Positions 6,001 to 12,000 of a stretch of DNA of 64,000 bases are shown here, one piece after another. Source of the DNA: a virus (Duplodnaviria > Heunggongvirae > Uroviricota > Caudoviricetes); IMG/VR virus record IMGVR_UViG_2537562172_000006. The stretch is one strand, 5' to 3'. Positions within the stretch are counted from its first letter, which is position 1, and each line of letters opens with the position of its first letter. A program made the position numbers.

Positions 6001-9000
6001 TCACGTCAGCGCTGGCTGTTTTACGCGTATGACAGGATGCGGAGGACGGTTGTGGCGCACGTCTTCGGTGAACGCACTCTGGCCACACTGGAGCGTCTTC
6101 TGAGCCTGCTGTCGGCCTTTGAGGTCGTGGTATGGATGACGGATGGCTGGCCGCTGTATGAATCACGCCTGAAGGGAAAGCTGCACGTTATCAGCAAGCG
6201 TTATACTCAGCGCATTGAGCGGCATAACCTGAATCTGAGACAACATCTGGCAAGGCTGGGACGGAAGTCACTGTCGTTCTCAAAATCGGTGGAGCTGCAT
6301 GACAAGGTCATCGGGCATTATCTGAACATAAAACACTATCAGTAAGTTGGAGTCATTACCTGAATCTTGGTGATATCACCAGCCAGTGCTGAAACAACGT
6401 TATTGCCAAATCCAAGAATCATTTTTGAATCACCGTTGTTGCATAGGAATAAATAAAAGGGAGTTTTACATATTTCTGGTCAATGGCATCTTTCAGAAAA
6501 TAGCCTATACCATCGCCATACTCTGGTATCTGAATAGAAAAAACGCTGTCCGATACTGTCACACTCACATCAAAAGTGTGCTGCAACGGCGGGTCTATTC
6601 CGTTTTTTCCATGAATGAACCGCGCCACACGTCGCTTTAACCAGTCAATGCAGAAATGCGAACCGTCAGCCTTATAAAAATTCCACGTTAATATTCGTTT
6701 GAAATAATCATCAGGTACATACGATGCCTGCCCCGGAACATAATTCCGCATTGCCGCATAAGGGATTGTATTGTATTCAATGGTATCGTATGCGCCGCGT
6801 GCAATAGCCTCCTCGGAAACCTGTAGTAAAGGCCTTTCAACGCCATAAATCCCGAGTGCAATCCAGTCCAGCAATTGCCCGGTTATTGATTCCGATGTCC
6901 AGCATGGCAATGCCAGATTGTTGAGTGAATCGAGGTATTCCTGAGCAATTTCATTGTATGCATCAAAGAACGCAACAACATTCGGATCATCTCTGTACTG
7001 CACAAATGGATAAGCAGGGAGAATTTTCTCAGTCAGATATTGCATACTTGTTGACCTGAACCTGTGATGCCACCGTTGAAAAATAGGAATAGGTATCGCC
7101 ATAAACCAGGCTTGTGTCTTTCGCCGGAAGAACAATATGGCCGTTAATACCAATGCTCACACTGATTGTTGAGATCAACGTCGCATCAACCAGCAACCTG
7201 ACGGAACTGGTAAAAATATCCTGGATACGCAGAAGATTTATCGGGTGTCCGACTTCAATTGAATTGATGTAATCAGCAACGTTTTGCTGCACAGCCATAG
7301 CAATACCCGCCGGATCAACATAATCATCAGACACCGTGTTCCAGGTGATTAGCACCATGACGTTTTGTGATGACGGGATAACGAACGGCACCTGATAAAC
7401 GTCCGGTGAAACGGTTATTGAAACCGTGCGTTTTTCCACTGCCGCACCGGATGGATTGCTAACATCGTTGGTCAGTTTCGAAATATCCGGTACAGATTTG
7501 TAAATCGCATAAGCCACATCATACGGATCACCGCCACCAACAACCGCAACCCATTTCCCCAGCGACGACTGCCGGAAAGAAATCAGGTTTTCTCGCACAC
7601 CGCTTACTGATTTGAGCATCGCTTTAAAGCAATCCGGTGTTCCCTGCACACCAAACATGCCGGACTCCATAACTTCGGCGCGATATGATGCCCATGTCTG
7701 CGCCTCCTGACCGGGCATACCTGCGGTAAGGTTCGTGCATTTTACAGGCTGGTCTTTGGGTACTGATGTAATGACCTGCGTTACAGTCCCTTCCGGTACA
7801 GCCCATGAGCCTGACGTTGTGGCCACACAGTAGACTGGCTCAGTCTGCCCGCTTTCCGGTACCACCGTATCGCGGGAAACCGCATACTGGTAGTTACCAT
7901 CTCCAACCACAAATCCTTTAGGGATACCAAACCCCGGCAACGCCTCAAACACCACGTATACCGCCGTATTTGTACTTAATCCCTTCTGTGCTCCATAAAT
8001 GTTTCCGAGTTGCATCAGTAACGGAATATTTGCGCCGTATGGGCTTACGGAGTTAATAAGGTCCACCCGCGCCTGGTCTATTAATGCCAACGCCCCGACT
8101 GCCGTGCTGGCAAGGTCTGTAATAAGTCCCGCCGGAAGGTTGGCTGTATATCCAGGTACTTTTTCAGCAACTCTGGTGATAAGATTCGCGAGCAAATCAT
8201 TGGGTGGCGTAGGCTGCGCACCCGCACTGGTCATAGTAATTGGTATTTCTGACATAGTTAATCTCAAGGATAAGTTATGAAGAAATTAATTTCATTGCTA
8301 ATTGCATCCACTCTTTCATTTTCAGTATGCGCTCAAGAAGAAGACAATTATCATACCCGTCTAATAAGAGCTGCCTGCAACGATGCCATGCATAAATTAC
8401 AGCTTCAATATGGTCGGCGTTTTATATGCCATACTGATAATTTTACTGCCGGAAATATGAATGCCGCATACTTATCTGATTCTGTTTATGGGAAATCGGG
8501 AATAATGTTAATGAAATTCGGTAATGTTTATTATGATAATCCCAGCCATCCAACCCATGACACATTACATTATTCCTACAATATACAAGACATGAATACG
8601 GCCATTTCTTTAATTGTCAATGGGGGCGGTTTAAACGATCAGCAAATAAATTATCAAATTTGTAAAAAAGCCATTACAGATACCAAGGAAAAAATAAAGA
8701 AAAACAATAAAGATTATCTAGACAAAAAGATAGATCATAAAACTTATGAGATAATGAATTCAGTTTTCAATGACTCGATAAAAAATTTTGAAAAATGTGT
8801 AGCTGAAAATAAATAGTTGTTGGACTTTACAACCGCGCCCAATTGAGTATGATTGGGCGAATGAGGCGTCGAAACCTCTTTCACGCGGCCTAGACCAACC
8901 CCGTCAGTGTTGGATTTTTTATGCCTACAATTCAGTGATGGCACAATGTGCGGTCACATCCTCGATCAATGTCGGGAGGGCGACGAATACAACACCCGAA

Positions 9001-12000
9001 AGGGAAATAAGTCCGCGGTTTCGTGAAGCCGTTTCGAACCTCCTGGCACCACAATTTCGAAAAAATTTCACGAGGTTTCTATGACCAGCCAATTAATTCC
9101 CGTATTCAACGGCATTGTTTCAAACGAAACTACCCTTCTCTGCAACGCTCGCGATCTGCACACCTTTCTCGAAGTAGGTAAACGCTTTGCTACTTGGATC
9201 ACCGAGCGAATCGGCGAGTATGAATTCATAGAAAATCAGGACTACATAGCTATTTCCCAAAAACGGGAAATAGGTCACGGACGAGGGAAAAAGGACTACC
9301 ACCTCACCCTGGACACTGCCAAAGAGCTGGCAATGGTCGAGCGCAACGAAAAAGGACGCCAGATCCGCCGATACTTCATCGAGTGCGAGAAGAAGCTGCG
9401 CGAAGATACCACCAGCACACAATCCCCTCTGAATGTTGACATCATCATGCGCGTCAGAAACGGCTCGGTTACCCACATTGAGCACCACAAATCAGGCTCA
9501 GTTATCACCACAGAATGGGCAATTCACTTACTACGCAAAAGTGGATGGATTGTCATGCCACGCGATGAACTTCTTAACACGCCACTGGCCCAATTGATGC
9601 CCGAAAACTTGCCTCAAACCGGAACCTGCGTCCGGTAACTGGTTCCGTTAAAAAACACAACATCGATGTTATAGGTGGGGTTCTCTGCCCCATCTACTTT
9701 TGAAATTGCCAGCGATGCAAAATACCCGGCATACTGTTGCTGAACCATGTTCACATAGTAGTCCGGGTAAATCTGCTGCACGATGCACTGCTGCGCAGGA
9801 ATACCGTAATTCGCGTAAAATGGCGACTCCCCCAATCCCAGCTTTAACGTCTGAATGAGCGTCGTCAGCCAGCCGTAGGAGAAATCACCGCTGGCGTCAG
9901 ATTCTACAGCAACCCATTTTTTGTTGCCGTTCGCGTCAGTGACGCGGCCCCATGTTCTCATGCGTCAACCTTTCAAGTAAATTAGGGTACCGGTAGCCAG
10001 AGCGGTACAAATGATCCACGCTACTGGAGTCAGAATATGCCGAATACCCTGACATACTGCGATTATTCTCGCAGCCTTATCAGCTCCTTGTGGGGTTGTC
10101 TCAGCCTTAAGAATCAGTTCGCTATCCATTTAGAACCTTTATGATCTCTGCGATTCCCGGAAGCGATTTAGCAACTGCAAACCCTCCGATAACTATAAGA
10201 ACTGCATAAAACATTCTTCTCAGAACCGGACTTCTTTCGAGCAATTTTAGAGCTTCCACAATCCAGTCTCCTCCGCTAAAATTAATCACGGAAGACCTCC
10301 AAACATACGTAATTATCCCTTGCCTTATTCAAGGTCAGAAACAGAAAGCCCCGACTGTTTGCCCAGTCGGGGCTTTCGCTTTATGGATGTAATTTAAAGT
10401 GAGCCGGTATTAACCCGGATTTGGTTGCTTCGACGTGATCGTGCTGTTGCCGCTTTGAACGCCAGTCACATCATGGCTGTGGCCGCTGGCGCTCACACCG
10501 TTGATAACTGCATCCTTCTCGACCTTGAGAGGGCCAATCAGCGAAGCTGTTGTATCCTTCATCTGGGCTTTGTCCTGGACGATTGGACCGTTGAGGTGAA
10601 TTTTCCCGTTCAGGAAAATATCTTCGGCCTCGAGGTAAACAGCTTTCGACTTTTGCCTGATTTCTTCCGGTGCCACCGTTACCGAGCTACTGCCGTCCTC
10701 TGTTTTGAGGATCGCGCCATCCGGACCGTACAAAACGATCTTTTGCGGATCTTCGTCGGACCAGTCCTTGTTTGCCAGTGGCACGAAAAACAGTGGAGTG
10801 AGCGACATCGAGTAAGAGAGCGTCGCCATACCGGTTCCCAATCCGGACACACCGCGCAGGGATACATCAGCGGCAATTGTTACTCCTCGATCGCCCGGCT
10901 GTATCGGGTAACGAATATACGGGAATGTGGCGACAGGGATTGTTATCTGCGGAAAGTTGATCCCCTCTGGCAACATATCAAACTGAACGGTCACTATCTG
11001 CCCACTGACATCGACAACATGGCAGGGCAATTCACGGCCTTTAAGCTCGGCTTGCTGGTTGCCAGAACTGGTCATCATCTCCGACAGCGTTCGGAGAAAC
11101 GGTAATTTTTGAGCGTTTGACATTACACCCTCGCCCAGTTCTCAGCATATGCCTCAAATACCGTCACCCAGGCATCGCCATCAGCTGTCAGATACGAACC
11201 AATGTGTCTGACCGATTTCACAAGAAATTTCCCGGTGAACGTGGTCGAATTTTTTGCGATAACGCTGGGTGCCGTTGTATTAGCCATCACAATCGACGCA
11301 GCGCCAGAATATAGCCCCTCCGGCAGTTTAACCACATCACCACATCTGATATCGCCTCTCATAGGACATTTGAAACTGACGGTAAACGGCGCTATCCATG
11401 TCGGCTGCCCGATTAGTTCATGGGCATGAATTGTTTTGGGCTCTCCCCATTTTGCTGACGCGTTATCGTAAATTCGTATTCTGTCGGAAAGAATACTGAT
11501 GGCAATCCCGCTGTATTTCTCATCGCGCATCATTGCAATTGAAGCACTACGGAGGACCATGGCCAGCGAACCAATATCTTCGTAGGTTCCATTCCACGGT
11601 TCCGGCAAAACAAGGCTGTCGCTGACAGTACAATCGATCAACTTATTCGGAAATGCCTTTTGCAACGCACGGGAGATAACATCACCAACCTTTTCCCCTT
11701 TAAGCCCCTCCCCCTCGATAGAGAACGGTTTACCATCATCTGTTTTGCGTACGGTTGGATTTATTACCAGGTTTAAGGTCTGGTTCGTGCCGATCCAGTT
11801 GGCATAGGCCAGATAAATTTCGCCATAAATAACCTCACCCTGTTGCTGTGGATTTGCCAAAGGCAATCCCTCAACAAAGCCCGCTTTCATACGGACCAGA
11901 CACCCCTGCAAACTCACGCTTTGCTTCAGCATGTCGATAGGCAAACCGTATATTGTGAGCATCGTTCCTGAATTCACTACATCAAGACCCGCTACCTCCA

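What the first reader, a model, noticed from the sequence alone, without database searches (positions are those of the whole stretch)
8277..9638. Opposite-strand moron pair (secreted protein and antirepressor-like gene) inside the baseplate cluster
Two + strand genes interrupt a minus-strand baseplate operon. The first encodes an AT-rich, Asn/Lys-rich secreted protein with a clear signal peptide and is followed by a GC-rich structured element. The second resembles antirepressor N-terminal domains and overlaps the W-like gene convergently. Expression would be independent of late transcription, which suggests lysogenic-conversion or superinfection-exclusion cargo.
Basis: inference. Interest (0 to 1): 0.5.

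Follow-up and report, generated by a model that had tools for sequence, protein, structure and literature searches.

The report
Antisense-RNA-gated antirepressor beside secreted accessory gene
Inside the tail genes of an E. coli prophage sit a small secreted protein of unknown function and an antirepressor gene, and the antirepressor appears to be kept silent by a small antisense RNA built like the phage P1 c4 immunity RNA, which would give a job to an RNA family (sRNA-Xcc1) that has had none.

Summary
Both + strand genes are real. ORF1 (8277-8816) is an AT-rich periplasmic-type protein under purifying selection (dN/dS about 0.1). It belongs to a very rare family, and no function can be assigned. 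ORF2 (9081-9638) is an AntA-family antirepressor.

The main result is the 264-nt spacer between them. It holds an Rfam sRNA-Xcc1 RNA (8971-9055; 69.7 bits, gathering score 53) inside a layout that matches phage P1 immI part for part:
- a sigma-70-like promoter;
- an upstream pair of decoy sites (a1, b1) followed by a weak terminator;
- the RNA, which carries single-stranded a' and b';
- downstream sites a2 and b2, with b2 overlapping the ant Shine-Dalgarno.

The a-b word occurs exactly three times in the 64 kb window, at these three places (0.18 expected). Across 115 distinct RNAs from viral and bacterial contigs, 57% carry a complement of 7 nt or more to their own downstream ribosome-binding site, against 3.5% for non-cognate pairs (permutation p <= 1e-5). 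Four sister prophages share the scaffold but carry four different matched b1/b'/b2 triples.

The best reading is a c4-type immunity module that represses ant translation. This is a new variant of a known kind. I found no paper describing it, and no expression data exist.

The parts
8277..8816 (+). ORF1: 179-aa secreted (Sec signal peptide, 4 conserved Cys) accessory protein of unknown function
   Evidence: ORF. No Pfam, PHROG or PADLOC hit. Only 8 clusters among 1.84 billion representative proteins. dN/dS 0.09-0.14 and GC 0.319. A homologue with 36% identity occupies the same slot in a diverged tail module. The AF2 model has pLDDT 87 with no informative fold match.
8826..8853 (+). Sigma-70-like promoter of the RNA-ant unit (TTTACA, 16 nt, TATGAT)
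   Evidence: 10 of 12 matches to consensus. An equivalent promoter scoring >=9/12 sits just upstream of the a1 hairpin in 27 of 48 diverse loci, against 1 of 48 shuffled controls. It is conserved in L129-L131.
8836..8859 (+). 9-bp-arm palindrome / stable hairpin overlapping the -10 element. It is a candidate operator, or the 3' hairpin of the ORF1 mRNA.
   Evidence: -14 kcal/mol, z = -3.5. Conserved in L129, L130, L131 and L044. Its function is inferred.
8863..8885 (+). Upstream target or decoy sites. a1 (UCGAAA, 8869-8874) lies in the loop of hairpin GAGG/CCUC, followed by b1 (UUUCACG, 8879-8885).
   Evidence: The a-b word search finds it at 8869-8885. b1 co-varies with b' and b2 in other loci.
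8895..8920 (+). Weak terminator-like hairpin (CCAAC/GUUGG, 9-nt loop) followed by a U6 run
   Evidence: Read from the sequence. Conserved in alignments A1 and A4 and in most loci listed. The terminator scan missed it because it allows loops of 3-8 nt only.
8971..9055 (+). sRNA-Xcc1-family RNA with c4-like layout. P1 stem 8971-8979/9039-9047. P2 hairpin with the conserved AAUACAA internal loop and a GAAA tetraloop. P3 hairpin 9015-9032, whose loop carries b' (UCGUGAA, 9021-9027). Junction a' (UUUCGAA, 9032-9038). 3' tail ACCA 9048-9051.
   Evidence: Rfam RF02221, 69.7 bits against a gathering score of 53, E 4e-12. The a'b' word is found at 9022-9037 on the minus strand.
9056..9075 (+). Downstream target sites. 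a2 (UUCGAAA, 9056-9062) and b2 (UUCACGA, 9067-9073) overlap the Shine-Dalgarno GAGG (9072-9075) of ant.
9081..9638 (+). ant: 185-aa AntA-family antirepressor. Its last 25 nt overlap the convergent 115-aa gene.
   Evidence: Pfam AntA, E 1.8e-27. PHROG anti-repressor families, E down to 2.6e-67. RefSeq names it 'phage antirepressor Ant'.

Best explanation
The locus holds two independent things.

(1) ORF1 is a conserved, exported accessory protein that travels with this baseplate module. Its function is unknown. I commit to a periplasmic role in the lysogen, such as blocking entry of related phages, but only weakly.

(2) The spacer plus ORF2 form an immI-type immunity module that works like c4-icd-ant of phages P1 and P7. 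The proposed sequence of events is:
- A constitutive sigma-70 promoter (8826-8853) starts transcription at about 8860.
- Many transcripts stop at the weak terminator (8895-8920). This yields a short RNA carrying sites a1 and b1.
- Read-through transcripts contain the sRNA-Xcc1-type RNA and the ant mRNA.
- The roughly 80-nt RNA is probably cut out of this transcript. Its closing stem is followed by ACCA, as in RNase P substrates such as c4.
- Its junction a' and hairpin loop b' pair with a2 and b2, which lie 1-20 nt downstream of it. b2 overlaps the ant Shine-Dalgarno, so ribosomes cannot load and no antirepressor is made.
- The same RNA would silence the ant gene of an incoming phage with the same b word, but not one with a different word. 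That is heteroimmunity.
- The upstream a1/b1 copy can compete for the RNA and so set the threshold, as the short IsrK RNA does in Gifsy-1.
- When repression is relieved, Ant would inactivate a repressor. The likely target is this prophage's own short, non-cleavable DicA/RacR-like repressor (40770-41234).

Shown here: the parts, their complementarity, and their co-variation across many loci. Inferred: transcription, processing, translational repression, the role of a1/b1, and the target of Ant.
For: The RNA is a member of its family. It matches Rfam sRNA-Xcc1 above the gathering score in the window. The same is true in relatives: Rac-SA53, the Stx1a phage (two copies), L129-L131 and ETEC4067. 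In each it lies 25-45 nt upstream of an AntA-type start codon.

The layout matches annotated P1 immI. In P1 the order is a1, b1, terminator-like hairpin, c4 (P1 stem, P2 hairpin, P3 hairpin whose loop is b', junction a', closing strand, CCACC), then a2, then b2 on the Shine-Dalgarno. The window has the same order and the same placement of a' and b'.

The composite word TCGAAA-N(1-15)-TTCACG occurs exactly three times in 64 kb. It is found at a1b1 and a2b2 on the + strand and at a'b' on the - strand. The expected count is 0.18, and 0 of 100 shuffles reached 3.

Co-variation in 61 distinct RNAs from viral contigs:
- Longest Watson-Crick match to the 24 nt before the cognate start codon averages 6.97, against 4.73 for non-cognate pairs (permutation p <= 1e-5).
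- The target ends 5-12 nt before the start codon in 47 of 61.
- a' against the leader averages 6.48 versus 4.51.
- b' against the upstream 260 nt averages 7.22 versus 5.43 (both p 1e-5).

The result was replicated on 54 new RNAs from bacterial genomes, with p <= 1e-5 for all three interactions. Pooling all 115 RNAs, 57% have a complement of 7 nt or more, against 3.5% of non-cognate pairs, spread over 79 distinct target words.

Four sister prophages share the same ORF1, promoter and RNA scaffold but carry four different matched b1/b'/b2 triples.

The downstream genes in other loci are all antirepressor-type: P22_AR_N, KilA-N, ORF6N, AntA, Rha and Bro-N.

A conserved promoter sits upstream of a1.

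The candidate prophage repressor has an HTH domain only, no peptidase domain, and a DicA-like C-terminus. DicA is known to be relieved by an antirepressor.

c4 blocks ant translation at the ribosome-binding site (review). A short terminated RNA plus a read-through mRNA is documented for IsrK in Gifsy-1. sRNA-Xcc1 was seen as a discrete RNA of about 88-100 nt by Northern blot and RACE in Xanthomonas.
Against: There are no expression, processing or genetic data for this locus or for any phage copy of the RNA.

Neither Rfam profile crosses over. The C4 and c4-a1b1/isrK models do not match the window at E <= 1. The sRNA-Xcc1 model does not match P1 c4 at E <= 10. Homology with c4 is therefore not shown; only the same design is.

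There is no icd-like leader ORF.

In the window's own copy the b' loop can partly self-pair (stem GCGGUUU/AAGCCGU, 4-nt loop). The sRNA fold is only modestly better than shuffles (z = -1.9). The short upstream RNA is not better at all (z = 0.27). The terminator stem has only 5 bp.

A Xanthomonadaceae integron-type subgroup shows no b'-RBS match to the nearest ORF, so the rule is not universal.

About a quarter of RNAs lack a complement of 6 nt or more under my automatic choice of start codon.

The prophage may be defective, because IS1 sits upstream of the tail fibre gene. The E. coli W lineage has deleted the module.

The target of Ant is unknown.
Confidence: 0.68

Rival explanations
1. ORF1 and ant together form a moron pair, meaning cargo expressed in the lysogen for lysogenic conversion or superinfection exclusion, and the structured element is just a terminator.
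For: The slot's content varies among related prophages, and it always holds exported proteins on the opposite strand. ORF1 is AT-rich, exported and under purifying selection. Superinfection-exclusion genes lie next to immI in P1, where simABC sits beside c4. From my own knowledge, the same holds in P22, where sieA lies near mnt-arc-ant.
Against: ORF1 and ant are separable. L127 has ORF1 only, the W lineage has lost ant only, and Rac-SA53 has ant with different exported proteins. The spacer is a multi-part RNA module, not a plain terminator. ORF1 matches no defence model and shows no similarity to SimC. No promoter for ORF1 was found.
Confidence: 0.25
2. The RNA element acts only in cis. It is a leader structure (a pseudoknot between the P3 loop or junction and the RBS region) that keeps ant translation low on the same molecule. 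No processed trans-acting RNA exists, so there is no immunity function.
For: a2 and b2 lie only 1-20 nt beyond the RNA in the window, so intramolecular pairing is favoured. All the co-variation data are equally compatible with cis pairing.
Against: sRNA-Xcc1 accumulates as a discrete RNA of about 88 nt in Xanthomonas. A closing stem followed by an NCC/ACCA tail occurs in 52 of 61 RNAs, as in the RNase P-processed c4. A second, upstream copy of both targets (a1, b1) that also co-varies is hard to explain by a simple cis block. Diversification of b words among sister prophages suggests selection on specificity, which matters only in trans.
Confidence: 0.2
3. The RNA is a trans-acting regulator of host (or plant-host) genes, as proposed for sRNA-Xcc1 in Xanthomonas and Xylella. 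Its position upstream of ant is incidental.
For: Published target predictions exist, and the RNA is under HrpG/HrpX control in Xanthomonas. The Xanthomonadaceae integron copies lack an obvious RBS match.
Against: In the window the only two matches to the combined a-b word flank the RNA itself. The variable loop tracks the adjacent RBS across 79 different words, which a conserved host target could not explain.
Confidence: 0.07
4. The three matching words are DNA operator half-sites for a protein (two direct and one inverted) rather than RNA pairing partners.
For: Repeated 7-nt words lie near a promoter, and a separate palindrome overlaps the -10 element.
Against: The words lie 20-230 nt downstream of the promoter. 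One always sits in a hairpin loop of a conserved RNA fold and another on the Shine-Dalgarno. In the Stx1a phage b1 (CCAAAAG) and b2 (CCAAAGG) differ at one position, yet both pair with b' CUUUUGG through A-U or G-U, which makes sense only at the RNA level. The a and b words change independently.
Confidence: 0.04

Closest known systems
Phage P1/P7 immI: c4 antisense RNA with a1/b1 and a2/b2 sites controlling icd-ant (Rfam C4 RF01695 and c4-a1b1 RF03163)
   Same: The order of parts is the same: promoter, a1, b1, hairpin with U-run, RNA, a2, then b2 on the Shine-Dalgarno, then the antirepressor. The RNA design is the same: a closing stem, two hairpins, b' in the loop of the second hairpin, a' in the junction that follows, and a CCA-like tail. 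Specificity is set by short variable words, as in P1/P7 heteroimmunity.
   Different: The RNA family is different, and neither Rfam profile detects the other's RNA. Here P2 carries a conserved AAUACAA internal loop and a GNRA tetraloop. There is no icd-like leader ORF, so b2 sits directly on the ant RBS. The antirepressor is AntA-type (185 aa), not P1 Ant1/2. No C1-type operator is evident. The module sits inside a baseplate cluster of a lambdoid, Rac-site prophage.
Gifsy-1 IsrK / STnc1160 / orf45-anrP (Salmonella)
   Same: One promoter gives a short terminated RNA plus a read-through mRNA that carries a processed stable RNA and an antirepressor gene whose translation is RNA-controlled. The Rfam isrK model covers the a1b1-plus-terminator part of P1.
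   Different: The isrK model does not match the window. There is no orf45-type coupling ORF here. In Gifsy-1 the short RNA was shown to activate translation, whereas here that role is only inferred.
Satellite phage P4 immunity: CI RNA with seqA and seqC
   Same: A processed small RNA is flanked upstream and downstream by complementary target sequences (as described).
   Different: P4 CI causes premature transcription termination of replication genes and does not occlude an antirepressor RBS. There is no sequence relation.
P22 immI (mnt-arc-ant with sar antisense RNA)
   Same: An antirepressor module with antisense RNA control of ant translation is embedded in the late or structural region of a lambdoid phage (the genome position is from my own knowledge).
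   Different: sar is a true cis-antisense transcript from the opposite strand. Arc and Mnt protein repressors have no counterpart detected here.
Rfam sRNA-Xcc1 (RF02221), Xanthomonas campestris integron sRNA
   Same: The window RNA is a bona fide member by score.
   Different: The published descriptions call it a trans-acting, virulence-linked sRNA. At most they note that it lies upstream of ORF6N or symE genes. None describes RBS-directed a/b pairing or a link to c4.
Exported superinfection-exclusion proteins encoded next to immunity or tail genes (P1 SimC, P22 SieA, phi80/N15 Cor, T5 Llp)
   Same: ORF1 is a small exported protein encoded next to an immI-like module and tail genes, and it is AT-rich.
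   Different: There is no sequence or profile similarity and no fold match beyond a generic helical hairpin. The function is untested.

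Membership tests
Rfam sRNA-Xcc1 (RF02221) | Covariance-model score at or above the curated gathering score (53 bits) over the full model | tested here: met
   69.7 bits over model positions 1-87 of 87, E 4.3e-12. The match is also found in the whole-window gathering scan.
c4/immI-type antisense immunity system (P1/P7) | An RNA with a closing stem enclosing two hairpins, carrying two exposed segments: b' in the second hairpin loop and a' in the 3' junction | tested here: met
   Rfam structure line and fold for the window, compared with the P1 c4 structure line.
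c4/immI-type antisense immunity system (P1/P7) | Downstream sites a2 and b2 complementary to a' and b', with b2 overlapping the ribosome-binding site of the first ORF of the ant operon | tested here: met
   a2 is at 9056-9062 and b2 at 9067-9073, against the SD at 9072-9075. Co-variation has p <= 1e-5 in two independent sets.
c4/immI-type antisense immunity system (P1/P7) | An upstream second copy of the targets (a1, b1), followed by a hairpin and U-run | tested here: met
   a1b1 at 8869-8885 plus the hairpin and U-run at 8895-8920. b1 co-varies with b'.
c4/immI-type antisense immunity system (P1/P7) | Match to the Rfam C4 (RF01695) or c4-a1b1 (RF03163) models, as evidence of homology | tested here: not met
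   No C4, c4-a1b1 or isrK hit at E <= 1 in 8000-10000. The sRNA-Xcc1 model does not hit P1 c4 at E <= 10. Rfam lists no clan for sRNA-Xcc1.
c4/immI-type antisense immunity system (P1/P7) | The RNA is released from the operon transcript by RNase P and represses translation in trans | not testable with these tools
   Only indirect support exists. A closing stem is followed by ACCA in the window, and CC lies within 4 nt of the stem in 52 of 61 RNAs. ARAGORN finds no tRNA-like gene.
c4/immI-type antisense immunity system (P1/P7) | A small leader ORF (icd) translationally coupled to ant | tested here: not met
   ant starts 26 nt after the RNA, with no intervening ORF.
AntA/AntB antirepressor (Pfam PF08346) | Domain score above the gathering score (27 bits) | tested here: met
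   96.2 bits over residues 22-89. PHROG anti-repressor families also match. Antirepressor activity itself was not tested.
Moron (autonomous accessory gene in a phage late region) | Presence or absence and content vary among otherwise collinear relatives | tested here: met
   The slot holds ORF1+RNA+ant (window, L129-131), ORF1 with truncated ant (E. coli W), rac62+rac61+RNA+ant (Rac-SA53), ORF1 homologue plus lipoprotein (L128), or ORF1 homologue alone (L127).
Moron (autonomous accessory gene in a phage late region) | Own promoter and terminator; deviant base composition | tested here: inconclusive
   The composition deviates for ORF1 (GC 0.319 against 0.480). The ant unit has a promoter. No promoter-like site was found upstream of ORF1, and its 3' hairpin lacks a U-run.
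Known superinfection-exclusion or defence proteins | Sequence or profile similarity of ORF1 to a described family | tested here: not met
   No PADLOC, Pfam or PHROG hit. One NCBIfam match falls far below its cut-off (18.9 bits against 150). hhalign against P1 SimC gives probability 0.1%.
   No Pfam hit at E <= 1 other than a sub-threshold DUF3888 match. PHROG 7986 is of unknown function. No PDB sequence match.

The most novel reading that the evidence does not exclude
The sRNA-Xcc1 family is not a virulence sRNA. It would be a second, widespread class of c4-like 'programmable' immunity RNAs in phages of Proteobacteria. Each copy carries two short address words (a', b') that are matched both to the ribosome-binding site of the adjacent antirepressor-type gene (AntA, KilA-N, Bro-N, ORF6N, Rha, P22_AR_N) and to an upstream decoy. 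Swapping the b word, as seen among sister prophages, would create new heteroimmunity groups. The window's copy would be a working example that gates induction of a Rac-site prophage with a non-cleavable repressor.
Probability: 0.6. Interest if true: 0.72.

Novelty: new variant of a known kind. Interest (0 to 1): 0.6.

Why it matters
Antirepressors decide when many prophages wake up, including Shiga-toxin phages, which carry one or two of these RNA-ant units.

If the RNA works as proposed, an Rfam family annotated in hundreds of genomes as an orphan 'sRNA' gains a concrete and testable function. The P1 c4 paradigm would stop being a curiosity of one phage group and become a general design with at least two unrelated RNA scaffolds.

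The short matched words would predict which prophages can cross-silence or cross-induce each other. They would also offer a compact, re-addressable translational repressor for engineering.

For genome annotation, the result warns that sRNA-Xcc1 hits upstream of ant, kilA, bro or rha genes are cis-linked regulators, not virulence sRNAs.

Tried and rejected
- The 24B_1 micro-RNA of phage phi24B, said to repress an ant gene, maps to the lom region and is a different element.
- Duplex energies using the whole P3 hairpin were noisy because the GC-rich stems pair promiscuously. The result was still significant, but the cognate leader was the best partner in only 4 of 70 cases. I replaced this with the longest Watson-Crick run against the 24 nt before the start codon.
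- The MAFFT alignment of 17 close relatives (A4) did not keep the variable loops in register, so I did not run the formal pair-count tool on the pseudoknot. Permutation tests were used instead.
- ORF1 versus P1 SimC gave no similarity.
- PDB sequence searches for Ant and for the 115-aa protein found nothing.
- ARAGORN found no tRNA-like gene in the spacer.
- By eye I found no LexA box near the promoter.
- The full text of the 2011 sRNA-Xcc1 paper is not held in the library.

Full report
**Context.** The window is an E. coli chromosome segment carrying a lambdoid prophage at the Rac site. It is 99.8% identical over the region of interest to porcine ETEC strains. It resembles Escherichia phage Rac-SA53. 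The Rfam families RalA, sok and frnS lie further along the window. From about 400 to 27500 the minus strand encodes tail and head genes. Around the finding these are a tail fibre gene (4093-5568), a 208-aa protein, Baseplate_J (7029-8255), a 115-aa protein (9614-9961), a 237-aa baseplate protein, a baseplate hub-like protein and an SLT-domain tape-measure-like protein.

**The observation.** Two + strand ORFs sit at exactly the stated coordinates between Baseplate_J and the 115-aa gene, and RefSeq annotates both. ORF1 (8277-8816) has GC 0.319 against 0.480 for the window, with Lys and Asn at 10.1% each. Its N-terminus has the n-h-c layout of a Sec signal peptide ending in VCA|QEE. The Cys in that peptide is not conserved, so ORF1 is not a lipoprotein. 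Four Cys residues of the mature part are invariant across the family. ORF2 (9081-9638) matches Pfam AntA (E 1.8e-27) and PHROG anti-repressor families. It overlaps the convergent 115-aa gene by 25 nt. The spacer has GC 0.492, so it is GC-rich only by contrast with ORF1. Nothing identifies the 115-aa protein as gpW/gp25-like.

**ORF1.**
- *Rarity.* The family is very rare. Only close relatives appear among 5.8 billion clustered proteins, and only eight clusters appear among 1.84 billion representatives in an exhaustive HMMER scan. It occurs in 25 of 5426 complete E. coli genomes and is always full length.
- *Selection.* It is under clear purifying selection, with dN/dS of 0.09-0.14 at dS of 0.67-0.93.
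- *Position.* A homologue with 36% identity occupies the same position, between Baseplate_J and the 115-aa gene, in a diverged tail module. There it is followed by a lipoprotein related to Rac-SA53 rac62. In another contig the homologue is followed directly by the 115-aa gene. ORF1 is therefore a long-standing companion of this baseplate module rather than a recent random insert.
- *Similarity searches.* There is no Pfam, PHROG or PADLOC hit, and one NCBIfam match falls far below its cut-off. There is no similarity to P1 SimC.
- *Function.* The function cannot be assigned. Export to the periplasm is likely. Superinfection exclusion is an analogy only.

**The spacer: identity of the RNA.** Rfam places an sRNA-Xcc1 RNA at 8971-9055 (69.7 bits, gathering score 53). 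The same family precedes the ant gene in several relatives:
- Rac-SA53;
- ETEC4067;
- three diverged relatives, L129-L131;
- a Stx1a phage, where it appears twice in tandem.

In each case it lies 25-45 nt before an AntA-type start codon.

**The spacer: comparison with P1.** Aligning four copies showed that the variable loop of the second hairpin is complementary to the sequence at the Shine-Dalgarno of the adjacent gene, and that it changes with it. I then compared the locus with the fully annotated immI region of phage P1. P1 c4 has the following parts, in order:
- a closing stem;
- a first hairpin;
- a second hairpin whose loop is b';
- a single-stranded junction, a';
- the closing strand;
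- a CCACC tail.

Sites a2 and b2 follow the RNA, with b2 on the icd ribosome-binding site. Sites a1 and b1, plus a hairpin and U-run, precede it.

**The spacer: parts in the window.** The window has the same parts in the same order:
- promoter TTTACA-16-TATGAT, 8826-8853;
- a1 (8869-8874) in a hairpin loop;
- b1 (8879-8885);
- hairpin plus U6 (8895-8920);
- the RNA, with b' at 9021-9027 in the P3 loop, a' at 9032-9038 in the junction, and ACCA after the closing stem;
- a2 (9056-9062);
- b2 (9067-9073), overlapping the GAGG Shine-Dalgarno (9072-9075);
- the ATG at 9081.

The combined word TCGAAA-N(1-15)-TTCACG occurs three times in 64 kb, at exactly these three places and in the expected orientations, against 0.18 expected.

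**Generality: the data sets.** A scan of viral contigs for the conserved P2 core returned 120 loci. After filtering for the closing stem and a start codon with a Shine-Dalgarno, 61 distinct RNAs remained.

**Generality: co-variation statistics.** The table compares the mean longest Watson-Crick match for cognate and non-cognate pairs in the viral set.

| Interaction | Cognate | Non-cognate | Permutation p |
|---|---|---|---|
| RNA vs 24 nt before the start codon (b'/b2) | 6.97 | 4.73 | <= 1e-5 |
| a' vs the leader | 6.48 | 4.51 | 1e-5 |
| a' vs the leader, one representative per distinct junction (n = 24) | 6.50 | 4.28 | 1e-5 |
| b' vs the 260 nt upstream | 7.22 | 5.43 | 1e-5 |

- The cognate leader is the best or tied-best partner for 33 of 61 RNAs.
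- The b2 target ends 5-12 nt before the start codon in 47 of 61, and 0-1 nt before it in another five.
- In almost every locus the upstream match lies 65-120 nt before the RNA. It follows a hairpin that carries a1 in its loop, and a hairpin and U-run follow it.
- A sigma-70-like promoter scoring 9/12 or better sits just upstream of that hairpin in 27 of 48 loci, against 1 of 48 shuffled controls.
- An independent scan of bacterial genomes gave 54 further distinct RNAs. All three tests were again significant at p <= 1e-5.
- Pooling all 115 RNAs, 76% carry a complement of 6 nt or more and 57% one of 7 nt or more to their own RBS region. For non-cognate pairs the figures are 13% and 3.5%. The targets span 79 different words.

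**Generality: downstream genes.** These are nearly all of the antirepressor type: P22_AR_N, KilA-N, ORF6N, AntA, Rha and Bro-N.

**Generality: sister prophages.** The most telling comparison is among four sister prophages that share ORF1, the promoter and an almost identical RNA scaffold, yet carry four different, internally matched b1/b'/b2 triples.

| Prophage | b1 | b' | b2 |
|---|---|---|---|
| Window | UUUCACG | UUCGUGAA | UUUCACGAGG |
| L129 | UUACAAG | ACUUGUA | AUACAAGAGG |
| L130 | GCAAAAAG | CUUUUUGC | GCAAAAAGAGG |
| L131 | AACAAACA | UUUGUUUGU | AACAAACAGAGG |

**Mechanism.** By the logic established for c4, the RNA should block ribosome loading on ant. In P1, an RNA processed from the operon transcript pairs with a2/b2, occludes the ribosome-binding site and prevents antirepressor synthesis, and P1/P7 heteroimmunity is set by the short words (review). 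The RNA here should do the same in cis and, if released, in trans on incoming homo-immune phages.

Evidence for release is indirect. The family's founding member is a discrete RNA of about 88 nt. The closing stem is followed by ACCA here, and by an NCC-type tail in 52 of 61 RNAs.

The upstream a1/b1-plus-terminator unit parallels the short IsrK RNA of Gifsy-1. That RNA arises by termination, while read-through gives the antirepressor mRNA, and it modulates the mRNA's translation. I therefore propose a decoy or threshold role, which is inferred.

The candidate prophage repressor (40770-41234) has 154 aa, an HTH_3 domain, a DicA-like C-terminus and no peptidase domain. DicA is known to be relieved by a prophage antirepressor. 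It is therefore plausible, though untested, that Ant is this prophage's induction switch.

**Caveats.**
- There are no expression data.
- The Rfam C4, c4-a1b1 and isrK models do not detect the window, and the sRNA-Xcc1 model does not detect P1 c4. I claim the same design, not homology.
- There is no icd-like ORF.
- In the window's copy, b' can be partly sequestered in a longer P3 stem. Folding energies are unremarkable for the RNA (z = -1.9) and for the short upstream RNA (z = 0.27).
- Xanthomonadaceae integron copies do not show the RBS match. A preprint places those copies upstream of symE.
- The E. coli W lineage has lost the promoter, the RNA and the first part of ant through a 407-bp deletion while keeping ORF1.
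- An IS1 element upstream of the tail fibre gene suggests that this particular prophage may be defective.

**Comparison with the literature.** The papers that mention sRNA-Xcc1 fall into two groups. Some describe it as a trans-acting, virulence-linked or vesicle-borne sRNA. Others merely note that it lies upstream of an ORF6N gene in APSE phages or of symE in integron cassettes. A 2025 review of phage sRNAs lists c4, sar and IsrK but not this family. I found no paper that describes the a/b pairing or the link to c4. The library is incomplete, and the 2011 sRNA-Xcc1 paper could not be read.

**Verdict.** The moron interpretation is partly right for ORF1 and for the slot. It misses the point for ant, which is the output of a c4-style antisense immunity module built on the sRNA-Xcc1 scaffold. 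This is a new variant of a known kind. It is of moderate to high interest because it generalises across many phages and is directly testable.

Noticed in passing
window 5597-6400: An IS1 copy (insA 5648-5923, insB 5842-6345) lies between the tail fibre gene (4093-5568, minus) and the 208-aa gene upstream of it. The near-identical ETEC4067 prophage lacks it. It separates the fibre gene from its operon, so this prophage may be unable to make tail fibres.
   Followed up: partly
window 8836-8859: A palindrome with 9-bp arms (GCGCCCAAU/AUUGGGCGA; -14 kcal/mol as RNA, z = -3.5) overlaps the -10 element of the RNA-ant promoter. It is conserved in L129-L131 and L044 but absent from Rac-SA53. It is a candidate operator, or the 3' hairpin of the ORF1 mRNA.
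   Followed up: partly
L005 2568-3850 (Stx1a phage phiSTEC801); also L116, L087, L070: Shiga-toxin phages and some others carry two sRNA-Xcc1-plus-ant units in tandem. The two units have different b words, and the first ant is truncated to about 95 aa.
   Followed up: partly
L129 5739-6284 and L130 4520-5068; window 9962-10409: A second cargo slot lies between the 115-aa gene and the 237-aa baseplate gene. Some relatives carry a Rha/ORF11CD3 gene there on the minus strand. The window has two ORFs of 54-55 aa and a strong terminator-like hairpin (10377-10344, minus).
   Followed up: no
L134, L155, L179, L206, L232 and similar (Xanthomonas, Rhodanobacter): Integron-type sRNA-Xcc1 copies keep the upstream b1 match but show no loop-to-RBS complementarity with the nearest ORF. 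Either their target lies elsewhere or the start codon was chosen wrongly.
   Followed up: no
L004 (PP818812, 'Actinobacillus phage vB_Apl-pPE4'): This record is about 95% identical to the E. coli prophage region, and its ant is shortened to 163 aa. The stated Actinobacillus host looks doubtful.
   Followed up: no
window 34456-34631, 47897-48075, 52372-52489: Rfam gathering-score hits to sok, RalA and frnS. The first two are type I toxin-antitoxin RNAs within the prophage. frnS marks the chromosomal flank.
   Followed up: no
window 40770-41234: The likely prophage repressor has 154 aa, an HTH_3 domain and a DicA-like C-terminus, and no LexA-like peptidase domain. Induction would therefore need an antirepressor rather than RecA-mediated cleavage.
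   Followed up: partly
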